64,000 nt of DNA. Origin: an uncultured virus (IMG/VR IMGVR_UViG_3300006137_000106). Lineage: Duplodnaviria; Heunggongvirae; Uroviricota; Caudoviricetes. The first letter of the stretch is position 1, and every line of letters starts with the position of its first letter. Both the position numbers and the translations under genes were made by a program. The stretch lies in IMG/VR virus record IMGVR_UViG_3300006137_000106; one strand, 5' to 3'. The notes below the pieces were generated by a model. It made no database searches. It saw nothing but the letters and a program-made list of their open reading frames with translations, and was not told the origin of the DNA. This document shows, piece by piece, positions 1,198-16,938 of the stretch.

Positions 1198-2850
1198 ATG
1201 GATGAAATTAAATACAGTTCTATTCAACCAATCGTATCAAGAATATGGAATGCCTATGGTTATTTGCGTTTATCGCATGAAGATGGTGATAAAAAGGAAA
1301 GCAACAGCATTACAGGGCAAAAGGACTTGATTCATGATTACTTTAACCATCACCCAGAAATAATTGAATGTGGCATGAAAATTGACGACGGGTTTTCTGG
1401 ATCTAGTTTCGATCGACCTGCTTTTCAAGAGATGATGGCTGATGTGAAAGCGGGAAAGATAAATTGTATTGTGGTGAAGGATCTTTCCCGTTTTGGCAGA
1501 AATTATCTGGATTCAGGAGAATATATTGAGAAAATATTCCCTTTTTTAGGGGTTCGTTTTATTGCTATCAATGATAATTATGACAGTCTAAATAGAAAAA
1601 CAGAATTCGATGAACTGATGATTCCCTTTAAAAATCTGATCAATGAGGCGTACTGCCGTGATATATCAATAAAAATTCGTAGTCAGCTAGAGACTAAACG
1701 CAGACGCGGCGATTTTACTGGATCTTTTGCTGCCTATGGTTATTTAAAAGATCCAGAAAACAAAAATCGTTTATTGATAGATGCATTTGCTGCCAATGTG
1801 GTACGTGATATTTTTTGTTGGAAAATAAAAGGGCTTAGTGCAGGTGATATTGCAGAGAGACTGAACAGAGATGGCATACTAGCGCCTTTGGATTATAAAA
1901 AATCTCAAGGATTACGTTTTGCAACACCATTTGGTATCAATATACATTCCGTGTGGAACGCGACTACGATTTTGCGAATTCTGAAAAATCCAATATATAC
2001 GGGGGTTTTGGAACAGGGGAAAAGTACAACCCCGAGTTTTAAAGTGAAGCGGCGTATTTTAAAGCCACGTGAGGAGTGGAGCATTGTGAGGGGAGCACAC
2101 AAGGCAGTTATAGCCCAGAACGATTTTGAGATTGTTCAAAAGCTACTGGCGATGGATACGCGCACAAGTCCTAAAAGTAATGTAGTAGAGTTATTTTCTG
2201 GAATAGTGTACTGTGGAGAATGTGGTGCTGCGATGGTCCGCAAGACGGTTCCATCTGGAAAAAAGAAATACATCTATTATGTCTGTGCGGCTCACAAGAA
2301 TGAAAAAACGTGTTATGCACACAGTCTGCGAGATAGTATTTTGGAAGGAATCATATTGGAATCAGTGAAAAGACAGGTGCAGAGTGTACTTGGCATGGAA
2401 AAAGTATTAGAATTGATAAAAATGGCTACATTACAACAGGCAGATATGAAAAAGTATCAGGAACGATTGGATAAAAAAAACGGAGAGATTAGCCGTTACA
2501 AAAAGCTGTTGTGTTCACTGTATGAGAATGTGATGGACGGTGTGATTGACAAAGAGGAATATCAGAAACTAAAAAAGAATTACACAGGGCTTCTTTCAGA
2601 GGCGCAAAAACGGGCAAAAATAATTAGAACAGAAATCAGACAAATAATGGAGAGTAACATGGAAGAAAAAAATTGGTTAGACCAGTTAAAAAAATATCAA
2701 AATTTTACGGTACTAGATCGGGCTGTTGTGGTGTGTCTAATAGAAAAAATTCTAGTTTATAAGAACAAACAAGTAGAAATAGTCTATAATTGGCAGGAAG
2801 AATACCACTGGCTTGCAAATTTGCTTTTACAGACGCAAGATAACATATAA
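1198..2850 (+). CDS. Large serine recombinase (resolvase, recombinase, Zn-ribbon and coiled-coil domains)
   Basis: YLRLS catalytic motif, DDGFSG, IVVKDLSRFGRN, YGY, CGECG...C Zn ribbon. Confidence 0.95.
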   Translation: MDEIKYSSIQPIVSRIWNAYGYLRLSHEDGDKKESNSITGQKDLIHDYFNHHPEIIECGMKIDDGFSGSSFDRPAFQEMMADVKAGKINCIVVKDLSRFGRNYLDSGEYIEKIFPFLGVRFIAINDNYDSLNRKTEFDELMIPFKNLINEAYCRDISIKIRSQLETKRRRGDFTGSFAAYGYLKDPENKNRLLIDAFAANVVRDIFCWKIKGLSAGDIAERLNRDGILAPLDYKKSQGLRFATPFGINIHSVWNATTILRILKNPIYTGVLEQGKSTTPSFKVKRRILKPREEWSIVRGAHKAVIAQNDFEIVQKLLAMDTRTSPKSNVVELFSGIVYCGECGAAMVRKTVPSGKKKYIYYVCAAHKNEKTCYAHSLRDSILEGIILESVKRQVQSVLGMEKVLELIKMATLQQADMKKYQERLDKKNGEISRYKKLLCSLYENVMDGVIDKEEYQKLKKNYTGLLSEAQKRAKIIRTEIRQIMESNMEEKNWLDQLKKYQNFTVLDRAVVVCLIEKILVYKNKQVEIVYNWQEEYHWLANLLLQTQDNI

Positions 2851-2875
2851 CCGTCTGAAAAGGGGGTGGTGTAGT

Positions 2876-3853
2876 ATGGCAAGAACAAAGCGTAAAGTAA
2901 ATTTTGTGGTTTCAGTGCCTGTACAGGAAGTAACCAAGCATATTTACCATGCGTGCGGTTATGTACGGCTATCCATGGAAGATAGTGGAAGACTAGGGGC
3001 AGATACTATTGAGAATCAGAAAGAGCTGATTAGCAGATACATAGAAGTACAACCAGATATGGAGTTTGTCCGACTGTATTGTGACAATGGACAGACAGGG
3101 ACAAACTTTTCAAGACCACAGTTTGAGCAAATGATGGAGGATATAAGAAAAGGAATGATAGATTGCATTGTGGTAAAAGATCTTTCCCGTTTTGGGCGTA
3201 ATTATAGAGAGACAGGAAATTACCTAGAAAGAATTTTTCCATTTCTTGATGTGCGGTTTGTGGCAATATTCGATCAGTTTGATACATCAAATATAGAACA
3301 AAGATCAGATAGTTATATTATTGCACTAAAAAATATTATGAATGAGGCATATAGTAGAGATATATCAAAGAAGGTTGGCTCCAGTTATGTTATAAAACAG
3401 CGCAAAGGAGAATTCACTGGCACATGGGCGGTATATGGTTATCAGAAATGTGTAGACAATCCTTATAAAATAGAACCAAATACAGAGACGGCGCCCATCG
3501 TACAAGATATCTTTAGACAGCGGATTTTAGGGATAAGCTATACGCAGATCGCGGGGGATCTAAACAGGCGAGGTATTGCTTCTCCTGCTCATTATCATTA
3601 TTTGAAAGGGGATGTAAAGGCGGAGCGCTATGCCTATGTTAAATGGAATCCTAAAGTAGTAAGAGATATTCTTTTGAATGAAGTGTATCTTGGGCATATG
3701 GTGCAAGGAAGAAAAAGACAGTCTTTTAGTGAGGGAAAGAAACAACAGTTGTTGCCGCAAACAGAATGGACAATTGTCAGAAATACCCATGTTCCACTGA
3801 TTGACGAGGTTACTTTTCAAAAAGTACAAGAAATGGCAAGACATCTTACTTAG
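2876..3853 (+). pseudogene. Second large serine recombinase, C-terminally truncated (no Zn ribbon or coiled coil)
   Basis: YVRLS, DNGQTG, VKDLSRFGRN motifs. Ends just after HVPLIDEVTFQKVQE and is followed by inverted-repeat element debris. Start set to ATG 2876. Confidence 0.8.
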
Positions 3854-3908: not shown

Positions 3909-4056
3909 TAGTACTACAGCGAACAAACTTAAATTATTCTGCCAAAATTTAATAGAATGAATTTCTTTCAATCAAGAAATATTGAATAATTAATGATATT
4001 TCGGTTAAATATTTTTGACTTCAAACAACATCTTCAATTTGTTCCCTGTAGTACTA
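3909..4056. mobile_element. 148-bp MITE-like element with 19-bp terminal inverted repeats
   Basis: TAGTACTACAGCGAACAAA (3909-3927) vs TTTGTTCCCTGTAGTACTA (4038-4056), 18/19 match; TA/YTAG at both ends; no ORF. Confidence 0.75.
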
Positions 4057-4096
4057 GAGCGCGTTTCGGATGCGCTTTAGAACAGGCTAGGAGGCA

Positions 4097-5704
4097 GTGA
4101 TGGAAAAAGGGATTGTCATAGCAAAGTATCTTCGCATTTCTGCTGAAGATACTGATATACGGAAGGCTGGTAAAGTTGAATCTAACAGTATAGGGAGTCA
4201 GCGTAATCTTATAGATAATTTTATTGGTAGAATGCCAGAATTTGCAGATGCGGATATCTTGGAATTTTGTGATGATGGCTGGAGCGGGAAAAATTTTGAG
4301 CGTCCTGCGTTCAAAACCATGTTGGAACAGATGAAATGTGGTTCGATCAACTGTATGATTGTGAAGGATTTATCCCGATTTGGACGGGATTATCTAACTG
4401 TGGGCAATTATATTTCGCATGTGTTTCCATTTTTAGGGGTTCGTTTTATTGCGATTAATGATGGATTGGATAGCGCTCACACAATGGATGCAGATAGCCT
4501 GGACATACTGTTCAAGACACTTTTGTATGATCTTTATAGTCGCGATCTGTCATATAAAGTGCGCAGTGCCAAACAGTTTAAGGCAAAACGTGGAGATTTT
4601 CTTTCTCCGTTTGCGCCATATGGATATATAAAAGCCAAAAAAAATAAGAATCAGCTTGAAGTAGATCTGGAATCGGCAGAGATTATCCACTGGATTTTTA
4701 AAATGGCAGCAGATGGGATTCGTCCTGTACAGATTGCACGGATATTGAATGCGAAACAGGTATTAACTCCTATGATGTATAAAAGGAAGATTGGATGCTC
4801 GCGTTCAGAATGGCCGTGTGTCAACAGACAGAATTTTTGGACGGAGAATACCGTGATAAAAATTTTGTGTGATGAGCGTTATATGGGCAAGACAATTTAT
4901 GGAAAGCGCATGCGCGATCAAGTGGGAAAAGCGCATGTTGTAAGTGTACCACAATCAGATTGGATTGCTGTGGAGAATGCGCACCAAGCGATTGTGTCAA
5001 AGGAAGAATTTGAACTTGGCAAGGAACAGCTTCAAGCATACTTGAAACACGATAAAATAATATCCAGCAGAAAAGGTACAATGTTATATAAAAAAGTGCA
5101 CTGTGGCGTTTGCGGTCATATTATGAAGCGGGTAAATGCAAAGCAACCATATTATATATGCAATACACCGCGTTTTACAGATGCTTATTCTTGTACAAAG
5201 GAACATATATTGGAAAGTGACTTGACAAAGATCGTTTTAAAGGAACTACAAATACAGGCACTTTACGCGGTAGAAAGCAGTCATATTTGGGAAGAGAAAC
5301 AACAAAAGAGAAGAAAGGATATTGATGTTACAACCAAGATGCTTTTTCAGCTAAAACAATCTCAAACAAAATTTGATTGTTCAATGCAAAGCCTTTATGA
5401 GAAATTTGCATTTGGGGAATTGGATAAAACGGCATATCTCAGGGCGAAGCGTGATATTGTAAAGAACCATGATGTGGTTTCCTTACAGATTGAAAAGCTT
5501 GAGGCAAAATTAAAGAATCTGAACACAGATAAAATTTTGGATAATCAATTGACAGACTATTTGAATCAATGTACAGAAATAGAGAAACTAATCAATGAAA
5601 TTGCGCCAGATGTTCTGGAAAAAATTGTAGTGTATCCTGACAATGCATTTTGTATTATCTGGAATTATCAGGAAAATTTGCGTCAGTTGTTTCTCGATTC
5701 TTAA
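4097..5704 (+). CDS. Third large serine recombinase
   Basis: YLRIS, DDGWSG, IVKDLSRFGRD, APYGY, CGVCG Zn ribbon; GGAGG RBS. Confidence 0.95.
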   Translation: MMEKGIVIAKYLRISAEDTDIRKAGKVESNSIGSQRNLIDNFIGRMPEFADADILEFCDDGWSGKNFERPAFKTMLEQMKCGSINCMIVKDLSRFGRDYLTVGNYISHVFPFLGVRFIAINDGLDSAHTMDADSLDILFKTLLYDLYSRDLSYKVRSAKQFKAKRGDFLSPFAPYGYIKAKKNKNQLEVDLESAEIIHWIFKMAADGIRPVQIARILNAKQVLTPMMYKRKIGCSRSEWPCVNRQNFWTENTVIKILCDERYMGKTIYGKRMRDQVGKAHVVSVPQSDWIAVENAHQAIVSKEEFELGKEQLQAYLKHDKIISSRKGTMLYKKVHCGVCGHIMKRVNAKQPYYICNTPRFTDAYSCTKEHILESDLTKIVLKELQIQALYAVESSHIWEEKQQKRRKDIDVTTKMLFQLKQSQTKFDCSMQSLYEKFAFGELDKTAYLRAKRDIVKNHDVVSLQIEKLEAKLKNLNTDKILDNQLTDYLNQCTEIEKLINEIAPDVLEKIVVYPDNAFCIIWNYQENLRQLFLDS

Positions 5705-5742: not shown

Positions 5743-5879
5743 GTAACAGTTCAAACAGGACTTTGCATTGCGCTGCAAAGTCCGTGGGAAAGCGTAGTAG
5801 TTGAGATGCATCAAGCCATCGCGAAGCGATTATGCACGGCTTGATGCTTGTAACAGGAAGCCAAAGGCTGAACTGTTAT
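5743..5879. mobile_element. 137-bp MITE/REP-like element with 8-bp target-site duplication
   Basis: Termini GTAACAGTTCA / TGAACTGTTAT; GGAATTGC direct repeats at 5735-5742 and 5880-5887; internal hairpins GGACTTTGCA..TGCAAAGTCC and GCATCAAGCC..GGCTTGATGC. Confidence 0.85.
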
Positions 5880-6064: not shown

Positions 6065-7216
6065 ATGAAAAGAAAGTTGTATTATGTACTATTTTTTTTG
6101 TATGTCATTGTTGTAGCTTTTGTTTTGTATTTGAACGGAGTATTTACAGGGGAGTGGCAATCTTCTGTCAATCTGATAATCAATATTGGATTTCTAATTA
6201 TTATTGGGATTCTCTTTATCATTTCCTCTGTCAGTTTTGGCAGACTAAGCAGAGCTACACGTGAGCTGGAAGATGTCAGTCTGATCCTACAAAAGGAATA
6301 CAAGAAGGCTGGCGAAAAGAATCTTTGGGCAAATTATAAAGGTAACGATGCATTTTTTGAACAAAAAGACTTGCAGGATGCGTTTAACAAGTACCGTTTG
6401 CGGGTAAATGGAACAAAGACGAAGCGGGGTGCTGGCTCTTTCTGTGATTTGGAAACATATATCAATGAGGATCTTTTGGATCGGGTAAGCATGAATTCCT
6501 TTAATTCTGGAGTTCCGGGGACACTTACAGGGATTGGAATTTTGGGAACATTTCTCGGTTTGTCTATGGGGTTAGGTGCATTTAGCGGGGATGATATTTT
6601 TACAATCTCTGACAACGTAGGTTCTCTGCTTTCTGGTATGAAAGTAGCTTTTCATACTTCGGTATATGGTATCTTTTTCTCATTGGTGTTTAATATAATT
6701 TACCGAAGTTTGATGTCAAATGCGTATAAGGCGCTAGATGAGTTTTTAGATGTGTTTCGTCAAACCACACAGCCATTTTCAGGAAAAGACGAAGAGACTA
6801 CTGCTACAATGCTTGTTTATCAGGCGGGAATGGCAAGCTCTTTAAGGCAGATCCTTGAAATGATGAAAGGCAATGCAATGGAACAGACAGCTGGTGTAGA
6901 GCGCATTGTAAATCAATTTACAGAACAGATGGAGTCTGCATTGGATACGGATTTTAAGAAACTTGGAAACACCTTGAAAAATGTGGGCGAATTACAGGCT
7001 ACTAGCACGGCAAATGTCGCGGAAATGGTGGAAGCAGTCACAACTTTGGTGGAAGTAAATCGCAATGTGCAGGAGGCGATTACATGCGTTATGGATAGGC
7101 AGGAGTTTTTTGCGGAACGGCTTGCAGAACAGAAGGAAATGCTGGCAGATATGTGTGATGAGATGAGCAGTCAGTTATACACATTTGAACAGACGAGGAA
7201 TTTGTATGAAGAATAG
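6065..7216 (+). CDS. MotA/TolQ/ExbB-family ion-channel subunit, ZorA-like
   Basis: N-terminal TM helices, TGIGILGTFLGL and GMKVAFHTSVYGI motifs, helical C-terminal tail; overlaps downstream MotB-like gene. Confidence 0.8.
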   Translation: MKRKLYYVLFFLYVIVVAFVLYLNGVFTGEWQSSVNLIINIGFLIIIGILFIISSVSFGRLSRATRELEDVSLILQKEYKKAGEKNLWANYKGNDAFFEQKDLQDAFNKYRLRVNGTKTKRGAGSFCDLETYINEDLLDRVSMNSFNSGVPGTLTGIGILGTFLGLSMGLGAFSGDDIFTISDNVGSLLSGMKVAFHTSVYGIFFSLVFNIIYRSLMSNAYKALDEFLDVFRQTTQPFSGKDEETTATMLVYQAGMASSLRQILEMMKGNAMEQTAGVERIVNQFTEQMESALDTDFKKLGNTLKNVGELQATSTANVAEMVEAVTTLVEVNRNVQEAITCVMDRQEFFAERLAEQKEMLADMCDEMSSQLYTFEQTRNLYEE

Positions 7217-8129
7217 ACGAAGAAACAGAGAAGCCTTTGCGGAGCACAGCTATTGGCAGTCTTACTCAGATATGATGGCTGCGCTGCTGCTAATATTTAT
7301 TTTGTTGATAGCAATTACGCTTGCCATATACAGACAGAAGACAAATGATCTCGATCAGACAAGACTAGAACTCAGCGCAGCTCAAAACGAGCTAGATGCA
7401 ACAATTGCGGATTTGGAATTTTCTAAAGCAGAGCTGGAGAAATCGAATGGAGATCTTGCATCTTCTCTAGCGGAATTAAAGCAGGCTTATGAACAGGCAG
7501 CCTTGACACAGGAAGAACTAAATAACGCATACTTAGAGATAGAAAATGCCAAACAGGAATTGACAACAACAAAACAGGAATTGCAAGATATTGTCGGCAT
7601 TCGCACAGATATTATTGGGGCGTTGCAGTCAGCTTTTAGCAATTCTACAATGAAAGTGGATGCACAGACAGGTTCTATTACATTTTCCTCAGATGTGCTT
7701 TTTCGTTATAATAGTTCCTCGCTGACAGCAGAAAGTAAGGAAACTCTAAAAACGATTATTCCAAGGTATTTGGATGTGCTGCTTCAAGATCAGTTCCGTG
7801 GTTATATTGCTGAGATTATTATTGAGGGACATACGGATACAGATGGAAGCTACCAGAGCAATATGGAGCTATCTTATGCGCGTGCGAATGCAGTGGCGGA
7901 CTTTTGCCTGAACAAAAACAACGGACTTAGCGAGGTGGAGATTGAGCAGTTGCAAAGGATTTTGACTGTCAATGGAAAGTCTTGGAGCAATCCGGTTTAT
8001 CACCAGGATAATTCGGGAAATTCCACGCAGGAGGTGGACATGTCTGCTTCCAGAAGAGTGGAGATTAAATTTCGGTTGAAAGAAGATGAAATGATTAAGA
8101 AAATTGCGGGGATTTTAGAGCAGGAATAA
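7206..8129 (+). CDS. MotB/OmpA-family protein with coiled-coil linker, ZorB-like
   Basis: WQSYSDMMAALLLIFIL TM helix with conserved Asp; IEGHTD, N.ELS..RA, SRRVEIK OmpA C-terminal motifs. Confidence 0.85.
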   Translation: MKNRRRNREAFAEHSYWQSYSDMMAALLLIFILLIAITLAIYRQKTNDLDQTRLELSAAQNELDATIADLEFSKAELEKSNGDLASSLAELKQAYEQAALTQEELNNAYLEIENAKQELTTTKQELQDIVGIRTDIIGALQSAFSNSTMKVDAQTGSITFSSDVLFRYNSSSLTAESKETLKTIIPRYLDVLLQDQFRGYIAEIIIEGHTDTDGSYQSNMELSYARANAVADFCLNKNNGLSEVEIEQLQRILTVNGKSWSNPVYHQDNSGNSTQEVDMSASRRVEIKFRLKEDEMIKKIAGILEQE

Positions 8130-8156
8130 TTTTTTAGTCCGTGTTTAACAGAGGCT

Positions 8157-8234
8157 GATTTCGGCGTAGGTAGGGATTTTGGTTACAAGCGCCAACACCT
8201 TGGTCACGATATGATGGGATTGATTGGCACGCCA
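8157..8234 (+). pseudogene. Isolated internal fragment of an M23-family metallopeptidase gene (DFGVGRDFGYKRQHLGHDMMGLIGTP)
   Basis: Manual translation; contains the HxxxD Zn motif followed by GTP as in M23 peptidases; no start, and a stop three codons after GTP. Confidence 0.8.
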
Positions 8235-8249
8235 ACAGAAATATAAAGT

Positions 8250-8284
8250 AGAACCTGAGTATCAAAAAATGATACTCAGGTTCT
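8250..8284. terminator. Perfect 15-bp inverted repeat overlapping the integrase stop codon
   Basis: AGAACCTGAGTATCA-AAAAA-TGATACTCAGGTTCT. Confidence 0.6.
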
Positions 8285-9812
8285 TGTCTTGTAATGTACA
8301 GGATTTAACAGTTTTTCGCACCAATTCGTTTTTTTCAGAATACGACAAATTATTAAGGTTGTCAACCAGATAACAGATATTTTCATAAACTTGTTTTCTG
8401 TTTATGGCAGCAGCCTTTTTATTTTCTAATGAAATCTCTGCGCGGGCAAGCGATGCCTTTAACGATGCCTGTTCTTTGTCCAATGCTTCCATCTGGGCAA
8501 TAATATATTTGGCAGCAGAGGAGGAAGCATTCTCAGAGAGTGCTTTTGCTAAGTTTGCAAGCTGTGTGTCCAAGGCATTCAATTCCATTTGCATGGATGT
8601 AATATCAGCGTCTTCAGTATTTGTAGTCTGTAATGTTATAAAGTCTGGATTGACCTTTATTTTCTTTAGTTCTTTTATAAATAATTCATCAATTGCATCA
8701 ACGCGTACATATTCAGAATCACAATATTCCCTGCCTTGTCGAACACGCTTCTCACAAAAATAATAAGAGAATTGAATCTTATTTTTCATATAAGTTCGAG
8801 TGGTCATTTTGCCGCCACACTGGCACCGCAGAACGCCTTTTAGAATACCAGTTGGATATTTCCCCGTTCGAAAGGTTTTATTGATTCCTAGGCGATTCTG
8901 TGTAGCGATAAAGACATTGGAAGGGACAACATAATTATGTATTCCTACAGCGATTGTCCAATTGGCGTGTTCCTGTGTGGTTTGTCGTTCCTTTCCGGTC
9001 TTAGTCTTGCCATAACGGATACATCCATGTGTGCCGTCGAATAGATCCTTAGAAACCATCTTACAGCCAAGTTCCTGAAAGTAGTAATACGCTTCAAGAG
9101 AGTTCTGGCAGTAGACAGGATTGGTTACAATGGCATAAATTTGTGACGCGTTTAGAAATGCTCCGTTTTGGCTTTTTATACCATGTTCCTTACAGTAGCG
9201 TTCCAATCCTGTGATGGTATAGCCGTTTAATAGAAGGTTATATAATAATTTTACACGCCAGATAGTTTCATCATCAATATCAAGAAAAGAATGCTCTTTA
9301 TCACCAAGCTTTTTCCGAATGGATTTCATGCCAGCCGGGCAGTTGCCGCCTGTCCATCTTCCTTGTTCTGCAAGGGCAAGCATATTGTCTGCGACACGTT
9401 CTGATGTATTTTCGCGTTCTAATTGGGCAAAGGCAGCCAATATATACATAACTGTTCTTCCAATTGGCGTGGAGGTGTCAAATGATTCCTTGACAGATAC
9501 GAAGGCAACTCCGTGTTCTTCAAAAGCTTCATACATTGTAGAGAACTCTCGTACATTTCGGCTAATGCGGTCAAGTTTGTATACCATAACAACATCAAGT
9601 TCATTTTTGCGAACATCACGCATCAGTTCTTGGAAGGAAGGGCGTTTTGTATTTTTGCCGCTAAAACCTTCATCTTTGTCATAAACTCTAAAGTCAAGCT
9701 CTTGACCTTTAAAGACAATAGCAGCGTATTCTTTGCAAAGCTCGACTTGGACCGTTACAGAATCACTGTTGTCCCTGTAGACGGATTTACGTGGATAGAT
9801 ACCAATTACCAT
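8262..9812 (-). CDS. Prophage large serine integrase
   Basis: YPRKS catalytic motif, DEGFSGKNTKRP, VYKLDRISR, AQLERE, CQCGG Zn ribbon; AGGAGG RBS. Confidence 0.95.
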   Translation of the reverse strand: MVIGIYPRKSVYRDNSDSVTVQVELCKEYAAIVFKGQELDFRVYDKDEGFSGKNTKRPSFQELMRDVRKNELDVVMVYKLDRISRNVREFSTMYEAFEEHGVAFVSVKESFDTSTPIGRTVMYILAAFAQLERENTSERVADNMLALAEQGRWTGGNCPAGMKSIRKKLGDKEHSFLDIDDETIWRVKLLYNLLLNGYTITGLERYCKEHGIKSQNGAFLNASQIYAIVTNPVYCQNSLEAYYYFQELGCKMVSKDLFDGTHGCIRYGKTKTGKERQTTQEHANWTIAVGIHNYVVPSNVFIATQNRLGINKTFRTGKYPTGILKGVLRCQCGGKMTTRTYMKNKIQFSYYFCEKRVRQGREYCDSEYVRVDAIDELFIKELKKIKVNPDFITLQTTNTEDADITSMQMELNALDTQLANLAKALSENASSSAAKYIIAQMEALDKEQASLKASLARAEISLENKKAAAINRKQVYENICYLVDNLNNLSYSEKNELVRKTVKSCTLQDKNLSIIF

Positions 9813-9876
9813 ATAGTACCTCCTGATAATAATTATGATTTTCGTGTATTAAAAATACACCGATTTCATTATTTGG

Positions 9877-9906
9877 TTGCAAGGATATATTAAAGTGTGC
9901 TACAAT
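9877..9906 (+). promoter_or_regulatory. Sigma-A-type promoter pointing away from the integrase gene
   Basis: TTGCAA-18-TACAAT with extended -10 TGn. Confidence 0.6.
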
Positions 9907-9911
9907 ATAAG

Positions 9912-9993
9912 CGTTGGTTGATATTGTAACTGGTACGCCAGTGATATATCTCTTATGCCGTTCGGTGCTGGTAACATCGAACGGCTTTGTTTG
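9912..9993 (+). ncRNA. Candidate ~80-nt small antisense RNA
   Basis: Bounded by the promoter above and an 11-bp hairpin GCCGTTCGGTG-CTGGTAA-CATCGAACGGC followed by TTTGTTTG; complementary to 22145-22290. Confidence 0.55.
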
Positions 9994-9994
9994 T

Positions 9995-10092
9995 ATATGC
10001 CCATTTTCAATGATTGATACTGCCTGTGAAGCTTGTTCTGGAATATCATTCAAGATAACCCTTAAGATAACATTTGTATCAATCAGTTGCAT
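9995..10092 (-). pseudogene. Truncated PIN-domain (VapC-like) toxin, about 31 N-terminal residues
   Basis: MQLIDTNVILRVILNDIPEQ PIN N-terminus; similarity ends at the repeat; overlaps the upstream antitoxin. Confidence 0.75.
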
Positions 10093-10324
10093 ATTTTTTT
10101 GTGATTGCACGTTTAAAAGCACCCTCTTCCTGTTCGATTAATGCTGGATTTGCATATTCACTAGCAATTCCAAGTATTGATTTTGCGGATTTTTTGTTTG
10201 CAGGTTCAATGCCCTTTTTTTCTAGTTCCTGTGAATTAATAAATTGAATAAACGTATAAACTGTTTCAATTTTCTGTTCTGGCATAGTTTGTAACAATCC
10301 GATTGCCTTTTCTAAAGTTGACAT
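10079..10324 (-). CDS. DUF2281-like antitoxin
   Basis: Size, LQTMPEQKIETVYTFIQFI pattern, KSILGIASEYAN; directly upstream of the PIN fragment. Confidence 0.6.
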   Translation of the reverse strand: MSTLEKAIGLLQTMPEQKIETVYTFIQFINSQELEKKGIEPANKKSAKSILGIASEYANPALIEQEEGAFKRAITKKYATD

Positions 10325-10446
10325 AGTAGTTATTCCTCCAATTCTATACCATAATATTTTTACGAGGTATTTTTTATTTCATTGTGTTTGACTTTATTAT
10401 ACCGTTCGGTGCTGGTAACATCGAACGGCTTTTCTTAATAAAGTTA

Positions 10447-10851
10447 TTATCCTAAATGAAGTTGTGTCTTTAAGGCGTCTTGTAGAACTTGGGAAAAGTT
10501 AATGTTTCGTTCAAGGGCAGCAGCATTGAGCCAAGCGGGTAGTGTAACAGTGCGATTTACAGAACGATTAATATTAGCTTGACGGATAGAGGGCATATAG
10601 ACATCAATTAGAACTGCCCGCTCGTTAGGTTGGACCTTTACATTAGCTAATGGTGTAGGGACAGGAATTTCTTCGCCGTCTTCTTCCAAACCATAAAGAA
10701 CACAACCAAGAAGTTCCCGCGCAGATAGGAGAGCATCATTATCATCTGTGCCACTAGTGGCACATTTTAAATCAGGAAAATCGACAGAAATTTCTTGTCC
10801 AGCTTCGTAAGAAAAAACGGCAGGATAAAAATAACGTTCTACTTTTTTCAT
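10447..10851 (-). CDS. hicB: HicB antitoxin
   Basis: YPAVF..V.FPDL..C.T.G; VNRTVTLPAWLN..NFSQVLQDAL. Confidence 0.92.
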   Translation of the reverse strand: MKKVERYFYPAVFSYEAGQEISVDFPDLKCATSGTDDNDALLSARELLGCVLYGLEEDGEEIPVPTPLANVKVQPNERAVLIDVYMPSIRQANINRSVNRTVTLPAWLNAAALERNINFSQVLQDALKTQLHLG

Positions 10852-10889
10852 AAAATAACCTCCTTAGATTAATATGTCAGGGGACAGGG

Positions 10890-11087
10890 CTAATTAAACT
10901 TTAGCCCTGATTGCTCTTCAATGCGTTTGAGTGTTTTGAGAGGGATATTTTTGTCTGGATGTTTTACTGTAGTGCGTCCCTTTTTAGTTGGATGTTTGAA
11001 TTGGTGGTGACTTCCTACTACATTCACCTCATACCAACCATCTGCTTTGAGTATTTGAATAACTTCTCTTGATGAATAATTTTTCAT
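10890..11087 (-). CDS. hicA: HicA mRNA interferase toxin
   Basis: REVIQILKADGW..GSHHQFKHPTKKGRTTVKHP. Confidence 0.92.
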   Translation of the reverse strand: MKNYSSREVIQILKADGWYEVNVVGSHHQFKHPTKKGRTTVKHPDKNIPLKTLKRIEEQSGLKFN

Positions 11088-11168
11088 TGGCATTTCCTCC
11101 TGACAATAGAATGATAACACATATAAAAATATTTGTCAATAAATTATGGCAAATATTTTTATATGTGT

Positions 11169-11585
11169 TCAATTAGTCTGTTTTACGTGCAAGTATTCCA
11201 TTAGTGCATTTTGAAATAACTTAGAGCAGTTCACGCCATCTTCATCAGCTTTAGAGGCAAGCCATGCTGGAAGAGAAAGTGTTTTCTTCACAAATCTGCT
11301 GTTAATACGTTCTCTTATGGGAGGCATAAATACCTCAATAAGCACAGGAACTTGATTTGGCTCAAGTGAGATAGCTGTGATGGGAGTTGGTGATGGAGGC
11401 GCTTCATTGTCTTGTTCCATACCCCAAATATGAAGTCCCATAGCTTCTTTTGCATTTTTTAATGCCATATCCGTATTACCAGTGTCTGCACAGGGACAGC
11501 ATCCGGGTAAATCGGGAAATTCAATACATATCCCATCTTCATCATAAGAAAATACGGCGACATAAGAATATCTGTCCTTTAACAT
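11169..11585 (-). CDS. hicB: HicB antitoxin (second copy)
   Basis: IEFPDLPGC, NAKEAMGLHI, VKKTLSLPAWL. Confidence 0.92.
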   Translation of the reverse strand: MLKDRYSYVAVFSYDEDGICIEFPDLPGCCPCADTGNTDMALKNAKEAMGLHIWGMEQDNEAPPSPTPITAISLEPNQVPVLIEVFMPPIRERINSRFVKKTLSLPAWLASKADEDGVNCSKLFQNALMEYLHVKQTN

Positions 11586-11631
11586 AAAAATCCTCCTAAT
11601 AATATATTAATGAGAAGCAAGTATGCAGGGA

Positions 11632-11829
11632 TTATGGAAATATAATCCCTGATTGTTTTGAAATACTTTTGAGAGTTCCTAAAGGTATGTCTTTTCTAGG
11701 GTGAGTTATTGTGACTTTTCCTTTTTTAGTAGGGTGTTTGTATTGATGATGATCTCCATCACAAGCCACTTCATACCAACCATTTTTTCTAAGTATTTCA
11801 ATTACTTCTCTTGATGAGTAGCCTTTCAT
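11632..11829 (-). CDS. hicA: HicA toxin (second copy)
   Basis: REVIEILRKNGW..GDHHQYKHPTKKGKVTITHP. Confidence 0.92.
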   Translation of the reverse strand: MKGYSSREVIEILRKNGWYEVACDGDHHQYKHPTKKGKVTITHPRKDIPLGTLKSISKQSGIIFP

Positions 11830-12130
11830 TTGTTAAGTCCTCCTTATAAGTACATTATAATACATAATTTATTGCGTGTCAATATCTGGAATAAATAATT
11901 TTTTATGTATTGTGAATTCTTATAAATACCTTTGTTATTTTAGTATTTTGTACTATACTGCAAATTGGAACTTATACATTGAAAGAATACTTTTTTGGAA
12001 CTTATTATTAAGAAGAACAGCTATCTCTCTTTAGGAACTGTAGAAAAATAATTGACACATCTTGACTTGTCTATTTCTTCGGTCTTGCAGACCCAGAAGC
12101 CTTGCCATAACCTGTTAAGTAAGATGCCTG

Positions 12131-13173
12131 TTATAATTTACAACATTTCTCAAAAGTGTCTTTTATTAGTTCCTGTATCGTATCAAGTTGCTCGACTTCA
12201 TCAAAATAATATTCACATTCATAATCAGTATTTTCAAATTTATGTAGTGTAAATAGATGTTGCTCTTTTCGGATGTAAACACGGCAAATCCATTTGGTTG
12301 AAAGCTCACCAAGCTGCATATAAGCATATCTTGAAGTCTTTTTATAAGTAATGTCTAAACTGGTGTTTAGGAGACCTTTAATATAATTCAAAACATTTGT
12401 TTCGTCAGTGTTCAGTATAGGCTCTGCTTTCTCGTCGGAGGGAACGGAAATAACAGGTTCGGGAGAAATAACAGTACTTAGGCGTTCTGAAATAACATCA
12501 TTAATGTATTCTTCAAAGGCTTTCTGAATGATTCCCTTAAATTTATCTATGACAGCTTGTGTTTTGGTACCGTTGTATATATTTTTGGTAAGGAGTGCTT
12601 TTACTAATTGGTCAGAAGGAGACTGAAACTGTTCCGCAATTACATTTTTTACCATTGTCATATATTTTAAGTTTGAAGCACTACTTAAAATGTTTTTGAC
12701 ATTGAATGCATCTTTTTGAAATTGTTTTAACTCCTCAGCAACATTTTTTTCAACTTTAGAAAGGTTGACGACAAGAAATGGTATTGTGTCCATTTTATTA
12801 TGCTCTTCCAAGTCTGAATAAAATTGATAAATAATGCCATTCGTTAGGATTCCAAACTTTGCTTTCGTGACGGAAAAGTATCGTATTAACTGACTCATAT
12901 GTTTTACAGATAGTTCCGTGTTAATAGGTTTGGCTTCGATTAGGATTAGAGGTTCATTATTAATCATAATGGCGTAATCAACCTGTTCTCCTTTCTTAAT
13001 ACCAACATCGGCAGTATATTCTGGAACAAATTCCAGTGGATTAAATACATCATAACCCAAAAGCTGGAAAAATGGCAGTATGATAGATGTTTTTGTCGCT
13101 TCTTCCGTCTGGATATTTCCTTTTAGGTGCTCAATTCTGTTGGAGAAGTTTTTAGTTTTTCTAAGAACTCCAT
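12131..13173 (-). CDS. HsdR N-terminal-like (type I restriction R-subunit N-domain) prophage nuclease; apparent 1-nt frameshift near the start
   Basis: EEATKTSIILPFFQLLGYDVFNP.EF.PEY.AD, VDYAI, LIEAK, GILTNG. The RBS-linked ATG at 13173 is out of frame with the body. Confidence 0.75.
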
Positions 13174-13457
13174 AGTGATTCCTCTTTTCTTTATTATTTA
13201 GTTTTTCCATATTTATATGATTATACGACAAAAGAGTACAAAAGAATAGTATTTCGTAACAAATTGATATTTTATTTGGCATTTTGCAAGAAACTATAAA
13301 AAAATGACGGTTCTTTTTTTGTAGGTATCTAACGAAATTGCGGGTTATTGCAAGATATGAAAGAATGAGTGTAGACTTTATACCTTTCTTTGTGCTAACA
13401 TTTTAATAACTTAAGGTGTAGGTAATATTTGTCGTTTAATACAAAGGAGCGTTGTGT

Positions 13458-13574
13458 ATGAGTGATAAAAGTGAAGTTATAAAACTCATTCAAAAACTAG
13501 ATGATGAGAGGGAAAAAAAGTTTATAATTCAAATCCTAATCATGATTAAAACCCATCTTTCGGGCAGGCATTAA
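13458..13574 (+). CDS. Small hypothetical protein (38 aa)
   Basis: AAAGGAG RBS; MSDKSEVIKLIQKLDDEREKKFIIQILIMIKTHLSGRH. Confidence 0.4.
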   Translation: MSDKSEVIKLIQKLDDEREKKFIIQILIMIKTHLSGRH

Positions 13575-13667
13575 GTCTGTCCAATCTTAAAATTATTTGG
13601 ATATATACTCATAAGCTTACCATATATATCTTATCCAAACTTTAGTTTTTAACATAACTTTAATTTT

Positions 13668-14759
13668 CTATTCAATCTTTTTTATGTCTCTGGTATCAGT
13701 ATATATATAATATTCTCTTACTACAGGTTTGGAACATAATTTTTTTGCATCATATTTTTCACCTTCTATGTAATTATGTTCAACAACATATAGTGCGTCA
13801 TGAACAGGATTGATGCTTGCGGTGATTTTTCTGGAATGGTTAACAATGACATGAAATTCTGAATCTTCTTTAAAATATTTTTTATAGTAAGAATAAATAT
13901 AGTCTTGAATGTTTACATCTTCTGATATTTCGGCAAGACGCCAGTTTCCGGTTGTATCATTTTGAACACTTTCATAAAATTTAAGATTCAAGTCAGATAT
14001 ATCTTTGTCGCTAATTCCACCGATTTCTTCATCAGTCTGATACTCTGATGTGAGTTCTGTTGGAGAATCATTAGGCAGTTCAGATAATTCTTTTTTGAAT
14101 AAAAAATCGCGTTGCTCATCGGTGTTTGATACTTCTATTTCAGATTCGCCAAGTATATGCGTTGTAAATGTGTCATATCGTGGTGATCCGTCAGAAGAAT
14201 AATTGCTCAACGAAACTTCTGAATCAGTTTCAGCATGGTAATAGCTTACTGTCATAATTATTTGAACATCATCAATTGGACTAAAAGCAAAATATACATA
14301 GTCCCCATTGGTATCTATAATTTTAATTTCGCCTAAATCTTCCTCAGTTGGTTCTGTAATTTCTATTTTATATTCAAGGGTACTTGCAAAACTTTTAACT
14401 CCTTCAAAAATAAATGATTTTTCTCGATTGGCGTAAGGAACATATATTTGTTCAAACAAATCTGTTGTTTCTATTGTTTGATATTTATTTTCTTCTAGTG
14501 ATAAAACAGTTTCTGATTCAGATTCAATAGTTTCTTCGGTCGCTATACTCGTTATTTCTTGGCTGGCAAATGTTTCTGTAATTGGAGTTTCTTCTTCAAG
14601 TTCAACTGTTTCTTTTTTTGTTGTTTCTGTACTGACTAATTCTGTGGATTCTGTTTCTTGTTTTGGTTCCTCTGTACGCGATTCATTTTTGGAATTGCAA
14701 GCCATTAATGATAAAGTTGTGATAGCTACGAGTAATACTAATAATGATTTCTTTTTCAT
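13668..14759 (-). CDS. Acidic lipoprotein in the lysogeny region (superinfection-exclusion candidate)
   Basis: MKKK-hydrophobic-LMAC lipobox; E/T-rich linker. Confidence 0.7.
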   Translation of the reverse strand: MKKKSLLVLLVAITTLSLMACNSKNESRTEEPKQETESTELVSTETTKKETVELEEETPITETFASQEITSIATEETIESESETVLSLEENKYQTIETTDLFEQIYVPYANREKSFIFEGVKSFASTLEYKIEITEPTEEDLGEIKIIDTNGDYVYFAFSPIDDVQIIMTVSYYHAETDSEVSLSNYSSDGSPRYDTFTTHILGESEIEVSNTDEQRDFLFKKELSELPNDSPTELTSEYQTDEEIGGISDKDISDLNLKFYESVQNDTTGNWRLAEISEDVNIQDYIYSYYKKYFKEDSEFHVIVNHSRKITASINPVHDALYVVEHNYIEGEKYDAKKLCSKPVVREYYIYTDTRDIKKIE

Positions 14760-15943: not shown

Positions 15944-15977
15944 AAATACCTCCTTTATGGTGTGCAGTACTGGACTT

Positions 15978-16920: not shown

Positions 16921-16938
16921 TTACAAGGAGGTGAATAT

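What the first reader, a model, noticed from the sequence alone, without database searches (positions are those of the whole stretch)
8130..8250. An ~80-bp 'DNA exon' of an M23 peptidase stranded between two serine-recombinase elements
Seen: the only DNA between the ZorB-like stop (8129) and the prophage integrase translates from 8157 to 8234 as DFGVGRDFGYKRQHLGHDMMGLIGTP. It has no start codon and a stop three codons later. Established: HxxxD followed by GTP is the first Zn-binding segment of M23 peptidases, and large serine recombinase elements interrupt and are excised from Firmicutes developmental genes (skin in sigK, SPbeta in spsM). Inference: one host gene has been split twice, ~80 bp apart. 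The triple-recombinase element ends near 8156 (TTTTTTAGTCCGTGTTTAACAGAGGCT|GAT) and the prophage begins near 8235 (GGCACGCCA|ACAG). The catalytic piece is still in frame and uncorrupted, so the gene may be rebuilt only when both elements excise, a two-key DNA-splicing switch that could be sporulation-linked.
Basis: partly seen in the sequence, partly recalled or inferred. Interest (0 to 1): 0.88.

Follow-up and report, generated by a model that had tools for sequence, protein, structure and literature searches.

The report
Peptidase gene split by two elements
A 78-base piece of a cell-wall peptidase gene of a spore-forming mouse-gut bacterium is stranded between a long-resident recombinase island and an active prophage, yet selection still keeps all three gene pieces intact, which suggests the gene is spliced back together at the DNA level, probably during spore formation.

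Summary
Window 8157-8234 is the 26-codon middle piece of a conserved Lachnospiraceae M23 peptidase gene. Its 5' and 3' pieces lie on two other contigs of a near-identical genome (G001). Joined in silico, the three pieces give one 337-codon frame.

- **Left neighbour:** a non-phage island with three serine recombinases and ZorAB, about 8.7 kb plus an IS. It ends at a TGAT core (8156-8159).
- **Right neighbour:** a myovirus-type prophage whose serine integrase uses a 14-bp core (8220-8233).
- **Spread:** 17 of 55 species of the genus that carry the gene have it split at one or both of these two sites, and 4 have it split at both.
- **The island is old:** it diverges in step with its hosts, while the gene pieces stay under strong purifying selection (dN/dS 0.01-0.07).
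- **The phage is recent and active:** an attP junction appears in a sequencing run and in a viral contig.
- **Sporulation link (circumstantial):** a sigma-E-like promoter precedes the gene, a conserved SpoIIID-like box precedes the recombinase operon, and the gene occurs almost only in spoIVA-positive genera.

Excision of the island, and any timing in sporulation, were not observed. This is a new variant of the skin/SPbeta/gin type of gene-intervening element.

The parts
1..81 (.). Right end of a multi-copy IS inserted in the left arm of the recombinase island. Its terminal inverted repeat is at about 58-77.
   Evidence: Window 1-80 (with the 61 bases before it in G001:C33) recurs at 100% at five other contig ends or starts in G001. 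An inverted-repeat partner lies at the start of G001:C3. The target-site duplication was not resolved.
825..850 (+). Conserved block ACATAAGGACAAnCTGTrAAATCATA upstream of the DUF6870-recombinase operon. It is a candidate sigma-E/SpoIIID-type promoter, with the SpoIIID-like box AAGGACAACC at 829-838.
   Evidence: The block is nearly invariant in 7 of 7 elements whose synonymous sites are close to saturation. WAGGACAANC occurs only twice in the window. The SpoIIID consensus TAGGACAAGC is taken from a passage of PMC11180830. Function is inferred, not shown.
879..1148 (+). DUF6870 gene, the first gene of the recombinase operon. It is a possible accessory or directionality factor (speculative).
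   Evidence: Pfam PF21757, E 1.5e-29. It is present before the recombinase trio in 7 of 7 elements, with 86% mean column identity.
1198..2850 (+). Large serine recombinase 1 (550 aa).
   Evidence: Resolvase, Recombinase and Zn_ribbon_recom domains plus DUF4368. dN/dS is about 0.13 against G006.
2813..3853 (+). Serine recombinase 2, truncated (346 aa; lacks the zinc ribbon and coiled coil).
   Evidence: It aligns to residues 2-348 of the 495-aa G052 ortholog. The alignment likewise stops at about residue 350 in G010 and G015, and runs nearly full length in G006, G060 and G052.
3909..4064 (.). Dispersed repeat of about 156 bp, lying where the 3' end of recombinase 2 is missing.
   Evidence: Two further copies in G001 at 93-95% identity. 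The homology to the G052 and G006 elements is interrupted over 3834-4079.
4097..5704 (+). Large serine recombinase 3 (535 aa).
   Evidence: Resolvase, Recombinase and Zn_ribbon_recom domains. Alignment A2.
5743..5878 (.). 136-bp dispersed (MITE-like) repeat between recombinase 3 and zorA.
   Evidence: More than 30 copies in G001 at 73-98% identity. It is the point where viral record G002 departs from the window.
6065..7216 (+). ZorA-like MotA/ExbB channel protein (cargo).
   Evidence: PF01618. NCBIfam ZorA families match below their cut-offs. PADLOC ZorA, E 1.8e-19.
7185..8129 (+). ZorB-like MotB/OmpA protein (cargo), the last gene of the island.
   Evidence: PF00691 and PF13677. PADLOC ZorB1, E 6.4e-66.
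8130..8155 (+). Right arm of the island's att site (TTTTTTAGTCCGTGTTTAACAGAGGC).
   Evidence: Conserved in the five genus genomes aligned (window/G001, G006, G026, G051, G052). The genome-collection scan returned these same five, a further Lachnospiraceae contig that is probably G060:C49, and one contig joined to a different gene. Two metagenome contigs also match. It forms an imperfect inverted repeat with the left end, with GGACTAAA 15 nt from the core on both arms.
8156..8159 (+). TGAT crossover core of the island (attR1).
   Evidence: It is the only sequence shared by the left junction (G001:C3, G052, G060:C49, G010:C19), the right junction and the intact gene.
8157..8234 (+). Stranded 26-codon middle piece of the M23 peptidase gene (residues 166-191 of the 340-aa ortholog). 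It holds the H-x3-D zinc motif and GTP.
   Evidence: There are 5 to 17 nucleotide differences from other carriers with no amino-acid change (G060, G006, G052), and 18 differences with one change (G026).
8220..8233 (+). 14-bp common core TTGATTGGCACGCC of the prophage att sites (attL2).
   Evidence: Identical in the G001 attR, in the attP junction of run X7 and in the viral contig L126.
8262..9812 (-). Prophage large serine integrase (516 aa), reading towards attL.
   Evidence: Pfam. PHROG 95 integrase, E 2.2e-102.
8234..64000 (.). Prophage (myovirus type). It runs off the window, and its right end is not in the window.
   Evidence: Repressor, primase/helicase, large terminase, portal, major head, tail sheath and tape measure proteins. 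G002 is rated 91% complete and still ends in a tail-fibre gene.

Best explanation
The 78 bases are a genuine internal piece of a single-copy, conserved Lachnospiraceae gene for a membrane-anchored M23 peptidase. The gene sits in the order hpf - M23 - thiolase.

The gene carries two separate attachment sites for large serine recombinases, with 60 bp between their cores. Here both are occupied. The upstream site (TGAT, between codons 165 and 167) holds a non-phage island: DUF6870, three serine recombinases and ZorAB, about 8.7 kb plus an IS. The downstream site (inside LIGTP) holds an active temperate myovirus.

The stranded piece amounts to the inner half-sites of the two attB sites plus a spacer. 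That is why one insertion leaves the other site usable.

Serine recombinases cut and rejoin without duplication, so each excision restores the frame exactly. This was shown in silico only.

The island is an old, vertically inherited resident of one clade. The phage is a recent arrival. The split gene evolves under the same strong purifying selection as unsplit orthologs. I therefore infer that it is still used and is rebuilt by excision.

The most likely setting is the terminally differentiated mother cell during sporulation. The island's recombinase operon would be driven there by a sigma-E/SpoIIID-type promoter, as with skin/spoIVCA and gin/girC.

In doubly occupied strains the gene can be rebuilt only if the prophage also leaves. 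Whether the phage does so in the mother cell is unknown.
For: **Structure**
- The three pieces are present in G001. The in-silico join is 1014 nt, 337 codons, with no internal stop, and is 84-86% identical to intact orthologs.
- One contig of another species (G060:C49) carries the 5' piece, an 8.4-kb trio island, the 78-bp piece and the prophage left end in that order.
- G052 has the whole 19-kb island and both junctions in one contig.

**Recurrence**
- 55 of 66 genus genomes have the gene. Of these, 13 are broken at the downstream site, 8 at the upstream site and 4 at both.

**Age of the island**
- All 5 species of one thiolase-tree clade carry it.
- Its synonymous divergence tracks that of the host. 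G001-G006: rec1 0.82, rec3 0.50, zorA 0.43, against thiolase 0.44 and M23 0.85. G006-G060: about 0 against 0.01. G015-G010: 0.02-0.05 against 0.07-0.25.
- The phage integrase does not track the host. G015-G060 is 0.046 where the hosts are about 0.47.

**Selection**
- 3' piece: dN/dS is 0.010-0.023 among carriers, against a median of 0.021 in 31 intact-intact pairs.
- 5' piece: 0.04-0.07 among carriers, against 0.06-0.08 in pairs with an intact gene.
- Middle piece: 17 nucleotide differences between the window and G052 with no amino-acid change.
- Recombinases: dN/dS 0.13-0.19.

**Sporulation link**
- G001 has sigE, spoIVA and spoIIID.
- A CATAnAhT box lies 36-58 nt before the M23 start in 24 of 27 genomes, with ATA at the -35 position in 12 of 27. 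This fits the sigma-E description in PMC3789822 (passage).
- The conserved SpoIIID-like box precedes the recombinase operon.
- The N-terminal domain of the protein occurs in 64 of 251 sampled genera, and 63 of those 64 have spoIVA, against 112 of the other 187.

**Phage activity**
- Run X7 holds an attP junction contig at depth 261, beside attL at 418 and phage interior at 677.
- attP also stands in viral contig L126.
Against: - No excision product of the island was seen. In 7 genome-collection hits and 2 metagenome hits the island's right end is joined to the M23 piece in 8 and to another gene in 1, never to its own left end. Contigs of 4 runs show no fork at 8156.
- No rebuilt attB2 was seen in those contigs either. 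Contigs drop rare variants, so this is weak evidence.
- In this genome the island looks worn. It has an IS in its left arm, two host repeats inside it and a truncated recombinase 2.
- Occupancy is patchy between very close relatives: G006 against G060, G040 against G003, G038 against G043. Elements are therefore gained and lost quickly, and the G026 island is closer to G052's than the host tree predicts. Vertical descent is thus not the whole story.
- The -10 box contains TATAAT or TATATT and could serve sigma-A. A scan of the window with the sigma-E pattern is at chance level: 10 found, 8.4 expected.
- No conserved promoter lies before the phage integrase.
- The 5' and 3' pieces of the window's own genome were not visible. 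G001 and G060 are metagenome bins with 5% and 7% contamination, and G060 holds two alleles of the 5' piece.
- dS values near or above 1 on 140-170 codons are imprecise.
Confidence: 0.58

Rival explanations
1. Plain insertional hot spot. The conserved zinc-motif region of a dispensable peptidase gene offers two good attB sites. Mobile elements land there and knock the gene out. The pieces look intact only because insertions are recent, or because unsplit alleles circulating in each species keep supplying selected sequence by recombination. No programmed reconstitution takes place.
For: - Occupancy differs between near-identical hosts, and the phage integrase is near-identical in diverged hosts.
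- At least three unrelated right-end types, a 4.6-kb non-phage element (G041) and a different cargo block (G024) use the downstream site.
- 38 of 55 genomes have the gene unsplit.
- No attB or island-circle junction was found.
- The island in this genome carries an IS, host repeats and a truncated recombinase.
Against: - The island is present in 5 of 5 species of one clade, with synonymous divergence as large as that of host genes.
- Over that span, none of the gene pieces examined in these carriers (3' piece in all five; 5' piece in G001, G060 and G010; middle piece in G001, G006 and G060) has a stop or frameshift, and dN/dS equals that of unsplit genes.
- The recombinases themselves are under purifying selection.
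Confidence: 0.22
2. The gene is rebuilt, but not as part of sporulation. Stochastic or stress-induced excision in vegetative cells gives a subpopulation with a working peptidase. This would be a phase-variation or 'active lysogeny' type of switch, as with the comK phage of Listeria (recalled, not checked here).
For: - Purifying selection on the pieces requires only that an intact gene forms somewhere.
- The phage excises spontaneously at a high level in run X7.
- The promoter box can also be read as sigma-A.
Against: - Germ-line excision would lose the island, yet it has persisted and co-diverged.
- The gene is nearly confined to spoIVA-positive genera: 63 of 64.
- A SpoIIID-like box is conserved before the recombinase operon.
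Confidence: 0.17
3. The fragment is not part of a split gene. It is a duplicated att core, a decayed remnant or an assembly chimera.
For: Viral record G002 departs from the window at 5743, which at first suggested a different left boundary.
Against: - The G002 jump occurs at a 136-bp repeat with more than 30 copies. It leads to DNA that G001 has elsewhere (C73, 100%), so it is a repeat-mediated join or rearrangement.
- Both outer pieces exist once each in G001, and no intact paralog was found.
- Independent contigs of other species show the same order.
- 20 runs hold the stretch.
Confidence: 0.01

Closest known systems
gin element in gerE of Bacillus cereus ATCC 10987 (PMC5595907; abstract and passages read)
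   Same: It is a non-phage island carrying three serine recombinase genes, inserted in the coding sequence of a mother-cell gene and cut out precisely to rebuild it. Only one recombinase (GirC) plus a small factor (GirX) is needed, so a truncated second recombinase here need not block excision.
   Different: In gin, girA and girB form an operon and girC lies apart; here the three genes are contiguous behind DUF6870. The target and host differ (M23 peptidase, Lachnospiraceae). The cargo here is ZorAB, and in G052 sugar-utilisation genes. Excision in sporulation is demonstrated for gin and only inferred here. No second element sits in the same gene in gin.
skin element in sigK with SpoIVCA (B. 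subtilis, C. difficile) (PMC517825 passages; PMC5025042 abstract in listing)
   Same: A serine-recombinase element interrupts a mother-cell gene. spoIVCA transcription depends on sigma-E and almost completely on SpoIIID, and the conserved box before the recombinase operon here resembles a SpoIIID site.
   Different: skin is a defective prophage with one recombinase. The target is a sigma factor, not a peptidase. Regulation here is read from motifs only.
SPbeta prophage in spsM with SprA/SprB (PMC4191935 abstract and passages; PMC5499854 abstract in listing)
   Same: An active temperate phage with a large serine integrase sits inside a gene. The att sites share a core of about the same length, and excision serves both the lytic cycle and gene reconstitution.
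   Different: No directionality factor and no sporulation promoter were identified in this phage. The phage shares its target gene with a second element.
Triplets of serine integrases in streptococcal ICEs (PMC4701971 passages)
   Same: Three adjacent serine recombinase genes lie in one orientation near one end. Insertion is site-specific and disrupts a gene, with direct repeats of 2-8 bp. Other genes may separate the triplet from the target.
   Different: Neither the window's island nor the 9 cargo ORFs of the 19-kb G052 copy that were scanned holds a conjugation-related gene by Pfam. It is therefore not an ICE as far as examined.
Heterocyst DNA elements of cyanobacteria (nifD, fdxN with XisF, hupL) (recalled; not checked in papers here)
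   Same: They are excised in a terminally differentiated cell. Several elements can interrupt genes of one pathway. All three recombinases scanned here (integrase, recombinase 1, recombinase 3) match NCBIfam's XisF model, far below its cut-off.
   Different: Different phylum and developmental programme. Membership in the XisF equivalog family fails: 110 bits against a cut-off of 375.
Earlier finding of this scan, e1-1182437 (another genome; AI note, unchecked)
   Same: It describes an active prophage with a large serine recombinase splitting a cell-wall peptidase gene of a gut Clostridia bacterium, thought to be a late-sporulation gene.
   Different: That case is an M15 peptidase with a single insertion. 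I did not test it.

Membership tests
Peptidase M23 (Pfam PF01551) | Profile match over the curated cut-off. | tested here: met
   Intact orthologs score 55.2-55.7 bits against a cut-off of 28.7. The G001 3' piece scores 53.6 bits. The best solved relative is 3nyy_A, a LytM-like endopeptidase, E 2.6e-19.
Peptidase M23 (Pfam PF01551) | Zinc ligands H-x3-D and H-x-H (motif names recalled). | tested here: met
   HLGHD lies in the window piece. HLH lies in the 3' piece, in ...SVHLHVGL.... Both are kept in intact orthologs. Catalysis was not tested.
Large serine recombinase | Resolvase catalytic domain plus Recombinase domain plus zinc-ribbon domain. | tested here: met
   All three domains are present in recombinase 1, recombinase 3 and the phage integrase. 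Recombinase 2 has only the first two and is truncated.
Gene-intervening element of sporulation genes (skin / SPbeta / gin type) | Interrupts a coding sequence at a specific site and encodes its own recombinase; a precise join restores the frame. | tested here: met
   Junctions and cores. In-silico join of 337 codons without a stop.
Gene-intervening element of sporulation genes (skin / SPbeta / gin type) | The host gene is a mother-cell sporulation gene. | tested here: inconclusive
   A sigma-E-like promoter is present. The gene is found in 63 spoIVA-positive genera and 1 spoIVA-negative genus. No expression data and no named sporulation family are available.
Gene-intervening element of sporulation genes (skin / SPbeta / gin type) | Excision occurs during sporulation and rebuilds the gene. 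| not testable with these tools
   Only contigs of public runs could be laid. They show phage attP but no attB and no island circle.
Integrative conjugative element with serine-integrase triplet | Triplet of serine integrases, gene-disrupting insertion, short direct repeat. | tested here: met
   Three adjacent genes on one strand. A 4-bp TGAT repeat at both junctions.
Integrative conjugative element with serine-integrase triplet | Conjugation module. | tested here: not met
   The window's island holds DUF6870, the recombinases and ZorAB, with DUF6756 in the left arm. The 9 G052 cargo ORFs scanned hold sugar-utilisation and two-component genes, and 2 of them have no family.
Zorya anti-phage system | ZorA and ZorB together with the type-specific partners (ZorC/D or ZorE; recalled). 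| tested here: inconclusive
   ZorA-like and ZorB-like proteins are found by PADLOC, but all NCBIfam Zor models score below their cut-offs. No further gene follows zorB before the island ends at 8155.
Temperate phage (prophage) | Integrase, repressor, replication, packaging, head and tail genes; att sites; an excised form exists. | tested here: met
   PHROGs hits. attL, attR and attP. The right end lies outside the window.

The most novel reading that the evidence does not exclude
A true two-lock developmental DNA splice. In doubly occupied strains the mother cell must fire two unrelated serine-recombinase systems to assemble one sporulation peptidase gene from three pieces. One system is the resident island's sigma-E/SpoIIID-driven trio operon. 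The other is the phage's integrase with its directionality factor. The phage has therefore either plugged into the sporulation programme, as SPbeta does, or lysogeny switches off a spore cell-wall function and so changes the transmission of a dominant gut commensal.
Probability: 0.17. Interest if true: 0.85.

Novelty: new variant of a known kind. Interest (0 to 1): 0.72.

Why it matters
Gene-intervening elements that are cut out in the mother cell are known from Bacillus and a few Clostridia. Here the same logic appears in Lachnospiraceae, a dominant family of gut commensals. The target is new (an M23 peptidase), and two independent recombinase sites lie 60 bp apart in one gene. Both sites are occupied in four species.

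The comparison of an old, co-diverging island with a young phage in the same gene, both around a 78-bp piece that stays under purifying selection, gives a purely genomic argument that a split gene is still in use.

It also offers:
- two natural attB/attP pairs with their recombinases;
- a candidate accessory protein family without literature (DUF6870);
- a direct, cheap experiment (junction PCR in sporulating against vegetative cells) on how prophages and islands interact with spore formation, and hence with the transmission of gut bacteria.

Tried and rejected
- **Own genome:** not held, so the outer gene pieces were sought in G001 instead.
- **Viral record G002:** it seemed to place the island's end at 5743. 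This was rejected, because the jump is at a 136-bp repeat and leads to a locus that G001 has elsewhere.
- **Sigma-E pattern over the whole window:** 10 hits against 8.4 expected, so it is uninformative. The sigma-70 scan around 600-1300 is also at chance level.
- **Promoter before the phage integrase:** none conserved in the 4 copies compared.
- **Exact 60-mer of the middle piece in metagenome contigs:** 0 hits.
- **Island right end in genome and metagenome collections:** 7 and 2 hits, with no circle junction.
- **Laid contigs of 4 runs:** no joints, no attB, no fork at 8156. Contigs cannot show rare forms.
- **Naming the peptidase:** NCBIfam gives no equivalog. The protein search gives only the name 'M23 family metallopeptidase'. 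Atlas hits score 0.90 or lower and are leads only.
- **Other searches:** Rfam gave no match in the window. DUF6870 appears in 0 papers. The phrases 'two intervening elements' and 'interrupted by two' do not occur in any of the 12 papers listed of 46.
- **Scaffold L132:** it carries an island-like right end beside another gene, and Pfam gave nothing for the 51 aa seen.
- **Complex prediction:** a test of DUF6870 with the C-terminal parts of recombinases 1 and 3 could not be run. The queue was full and the tool then became unavailable. Nothing can be said about binding.
- **IS insertion:** its target-site duplication could not be resolved.
Full report
**Observation.** Window 8157-8234 on the plus strand reads DFGVGRDFGYKRQHLGHDMMGLIGTP, then TEI and a stop. 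No start codon lies in this frame. To the left is the stop (8129) of a ZorB-like gene. To the right is a 516-aa large serine integrase on the minus strand, at 8262-9812. An intact ortholog aligns to these 26 codons at 26 of 26 identities, E 3.7e-12.

**The gene and its three pieces.** The window's own assembly is not held.
- Genome G001 is identical to window 1-16803 on its contig C33.
- A Pfam M23 scan of G001 found a 157-codon stop-to-stop frame on contig C7. It begins ...LIGTP|IIAVESGY..., carries HLH, and lies between a phage-type amidase gene and a thiolase gene.
- Using that piece as a query, 55 of 66 genomes of the genus have one match each. The open frames are either about 340-396 codons or only 148-214 codons.
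- Intact genes (for example 340 aa in G008 and 348 aa in G003) lie in the order hpf - M23 - thiolase. They read ...SYQDYDDFGVGRDFGYKRQHLGHDMMGLIGTPIIAVESGY....
- The N-terminal 170 residues find one place in G001, on contig C3 next to hpf. It ends ...SYQDYDD and then diverges.
- Joining the C3 piece (504 nt), the window piece (74 nt after the shared codon) and the C7 piece (436 nt) in a script gives 1014 nt, or 337 codons, with no internal stop. The product is 86% identical to the G008 protein and 84% identical, without gaps, to the G003 protein (one search had the boundary off by 3 nt).
- No other copy of either outer piece was found in G001.

**Junctions.**
- *Prophage.* The window's attL and G001's attR share exactly TTGATTGGCACGCC (8220-8233). 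Phage-specific sequence starts at 8234.
- *Island.* The left junction reads ...GATTATGATGAT|GTTTCTGATATAATAGGACTAAA... and the right junction reads ...TTTAGTCCGTGTTTAACAGAGGCTGAT|TTCGG.... The only shared letters are TGAT (8156-8159). The two arms form an imperfect inverted repeat, with GGACTAAA 15 nt from the core.
- Sixty bases separate the two cores. The stranded piece therefore consists of the inner half-sites of two attB sites plus a spacer. That reading of the half-sites is my inference from the usual 40-50 bp size of such sites (PMC12286644 abstract in the listing).

**The left element.**
- In the window it comprises DUF6870 (879-1148), three serine recombinase genes (1198-2850, 2813-3853, 4097-5704) and a ZorA/ZorB-like pair (6065-8129).
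- Window 1-81 is the end of a multi-copy IS. Its other end starts G001:C3, about 634 bp inside the island's left arm, which holds a DUF6756 gene. Without the IS the island is about 8.7 kb.
- Recombinase 2 lacks its last 147 or so residues, and a 156-bp host repeat lies there. A 136-bp repeat with more than 30 genomic copies lies at 5743-5878.
- Related islands with the same ends sit at the same codon in other species. G052 has a 19-kb copy with both junctions in one contig, carrying melibiase, ABC permeases, a two-component system and an amylase-family enzyme. G060:C49 has an 8.4-kb copy in one contig, together with the 5' piece, the 78-bp piece and a prophage left end.
- The alignment of recombinase 2 to the G052 ortholog also stops at about residue 350 in G010 and G015, and runs nearly full length in G006, G060 and G052.
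- No conjugation or phage gene was seen in the parts examined.

**The right element.**
- It encodes a repressor, primase/helicase, large terminase, portal, major head, tail sheath and tape-measure proteins. It runs off the window.
- Viral record G002 covers window 5743-64000 plus 1.5 kb and still ends in a tail-fibre gene.
- G002 departs from the window at the 136-bp repeat and continues into DNA that G001 has at another locus (C73, 100%). I read this as a repeat-mediated join or rearrangement, not as the island's boundary.
- In run X7 a 46-nt contig joins the phage's right-end letters to 8220-8249 (an attP junction) at depth 261. The host-phage junction contig has depth 418 and the phage interior 677.
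- A 21-kb viral contig (L126) also has phage right end - core - phage left end.
- The phage therefore exists excised. A tandem lysogen is not excluded, but it fits the depths less well.

**Survey of the genus.** Among the 55 genomes with the gene:
- The homology of the 3' part starts at residue 187/188 in 13 genomes: G001, G010, G014, G015, G024, G038, G040, G041, G046, G053, G054, G060 and G067. In G040 and G046 the contig simply ends there.
- There are at least three kinds of element end at that site, plus a 4.6-kb non-phage element in G041.
- The island's right end followed by residue 166 is present in 8 genomes: G001, G006, G026, G051, G052 and, from a search with window 8040-8360, G060, G015 and G010.
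- Both sites are occupied in G001, G060, G015 and G010. In G010 this is inferred from two contigs.
- In total 17 of 55 genomes are split and 38 are not. One of the 38 has an in-frame TGA.

**Age and selection.**
- On a thiolase-gene tree of 48 genomes, occupancy is scattered. Some near-identical pairs differ: G006 against G060, G040 against G003, G038 against G043.
- However, all five members of the clade (G001,(G006,G060)),(G015,G010) carry the island.
- Synonymous divergence of island genes follows that of host genes at three depths:

| Pair | Island genes (dS) | Host genes (dS) |
|---|---|---|
| G006-G060 | 0-0.025 | thiolase 0.01, M23 0 |
| G015-G010 | rec1 0.05, DUF6870 0.02 (zorB 0.82 is an outlier) | thiolase 0.07, M23 0.25 |
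| G001-G006 | rec1 0.82, DUF6870 0.87, rec3 0.50, zorA 0.43 | thiolase 0.44, M23 0.85 |

- The phage integrase behaves differently. G015 and G060 differ by dS 0.046 although their hosts differ by about 0.47.
- Within the carrier clade the 3' piece has dN/dS 0.010-0.023, against a median of 0.021 for 31 intact-intact pairs.
- The 5' piece has dN/dS 0.04-0.07 among carriers, against 0.06-0.08 in pairs with an intact gene.
- The 78-bp piece differs from G060 and G006 at 5 positions and from G052 at 17 positions, with no amino-acid change. It differs from G026 at 18 positions with one change.
- The recombinases have dN/dS 0.13-0.19.
- At greater depth the island tree is not fully congruent with the hosts. 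G026's recombinase 1 is closest to G052's.
- These are NG86 estimates on short genes, with dS near saturation in several pairs.

**Link to sporulation.**
- G001 encodes sigma-E, SpoIVA and SpoIIID over the curated cut-offs. SpoIIID is present in 13 of 13 sampled genomes of the genus.
- Upstream of the M23 gene the only conserved blocks are GCATATC (or GTATATA), 14 nt, then CATATAAT. CATAnAhT lies 36-58 nt before the start in 24 of 27 genomes, with ATA at the -35 place in 12 of 27.
- A passage of PMC3789822 states that sigma-E and sigma-K promoters of C. difficile share the -10 and differ by ATA against AC at -35. The fuller form, ZHATAXX-14 bp-CATACAHT, is recalled.
- The box also contains a sigma-A-like TATAAT.
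- Before DUF6870, a 27-nt block is almost invariant in 7 of 7 islands. It contains AAGGACAAnC. The SpoIIID consensus is TAGGACAAGC (PMC11180830 passage), and spoIVCA, the skin recombinase gene, depends on sigma-E and almost completely on SpoIIID (PMC517825 passages). The motif occurs twice in the window against 1.2 expected, so its weight comes from place and conservation.
- In a sample of 251 Lachnospiraceae genomes (about one per genus, at least 90% complete), the N-terminal domain of the peptidase was found in 64 and spoIVA in 175. By my comparison of the two printed lists, 63 of the 64 have spoIVA, against 112 of the other 187 (Fisher 1e-10). That test overstates significance, because relatives are not independent.

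**Reading.**
- *Shown:* the double split, its exact sites, its recurrence, an in-frame join and an excised form of the phage.
- *Inferred with fair support:* the island is an old resident, and the gene is still used by carriers, so it must be rebuilt.
- *Inferred more weakly:* rebuilding happens in the mother cell under sigma-E/SpoIIID.
- *Unknown:* whether the phage leaves in the mother cell, and which recombinase acts. In gin only one of three recombinases plus a small factor is needed (PMC5595907).
- *Against:* no attB and no island circle was found in any collection or contig set, and this copy of the island has an IS, two repeats and a truncated recombinase.

**Comparison with what is known.**
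- The case belongs with skin, SPbeta, vfbin/vrin and gin (PMC4191935, PMC5595907).
- Its recombinase module resembles the serine-integrase triplets of streptococcal ICEs (PMC4701971), but without a conjugation module.
- New here are the target gene, the host family, two sites in one gene with double occupancy in four species, and the contrast of an old island and a young phage.
- My searches of the paper library found no description of this. They cover open-access papers and bioRxiv only.
I did not test it.

**Limits.**
- The outer pieces are seen in G001 and other genomes, not in the window's own assembly.
- G001 and G060 are bins with 5% and 7% contamination, and G060 holds two alleles of the 5' piece.

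Noticed in passing
window 5743-5878: A 136-bp dispersed repeat with more than 30 copies (73-98% identity) across G001 contigs. It is MITE-like, and no Rfam family matches it. It is also the point at which the IMG/VR record G002 jumps to another chromosomal locus.
   Followed up: partly
window 3909-4064: A second host repeat of about 156 bp (two other copies in G001, 93-95% identity). It lies exactly where the 3' third of serine recombinase 2 is missing.
   Followed up: partly
window 52788-52900: A stretch of about 100 bp inside the prophage, between the tail-sheath region and the tape-measure gene, matches 17 places in G001 at 77-88% identity. It is another dispersed repeat that has entered phage DNA.
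   Followed up: no
window 1-81 and G001:C3:1-235: The two ends of one multi-copy IS, with terminal inverted repeats CACCAGTTTACAACTTTT.... The IS breaks many G001 contigs and sits in the island's left arm. Its transposase start is visible on C3. The target duplication was not resolved.
   Followed up: partly
window 10447-11829 and 15533-15943: The prophage lysogeny region holds three HicB-like antitoxin genes (Pfam PF15919). By eye, two small HicA-like genes lie at 10890-11120 and 11632-11829. That makes several toxin-antitoxin pairs next to the integrase.
   Followed up: no
window 12131-13282: A 383-aa protein inside the prophage has type I restriction HSDR_N domains only. It is a possible defence or anti-defence gene.
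   Followed up: no
L132 (genome-contig hit, 326 bp): A scaffold filed under a Bacteroides bin carries an island-type right end (TTAGTCCGTGCTTGACAGAGGCTGAT) joined to a different open frame (DEGYSAIEIIRYYYGSDMYIN...). Relatives of the island may use other target genes. The bin label is probably a mis-binning. Pfam gave nothing for the 51 aa seen.
   Followed up: partly
L049 (G052:C6) 8000-19500: The same island family carries a complete sugar-utilisation block in another species: GH36 melibiase, two ABC permeases, an AraC-type response regulator, a histidine kinase and a GH13 enzyme. The island therefore moves metabolic as well as defence cargo.
   Followed up: partly
L033 (G041:C7) about 600-5180: A 4.6-kb non-phage element uses the downstream site. 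It holds a 539-aa serine integrase, a 309-aa and a 475-aa protein; by eye these two look like a D-Ala-D-Ala carboxypeptidase and a hemerythrin/response-regulator fusion, but neither was scanned.
   Followed up: no
window 8250-8284: A perfect hairpin (GAACCTGAGTATCA...TGATACTCAGGTTC) lies between the stranded gene piece and the integrase stop. It is probably a bidirectional terminator.
   Followed up: no
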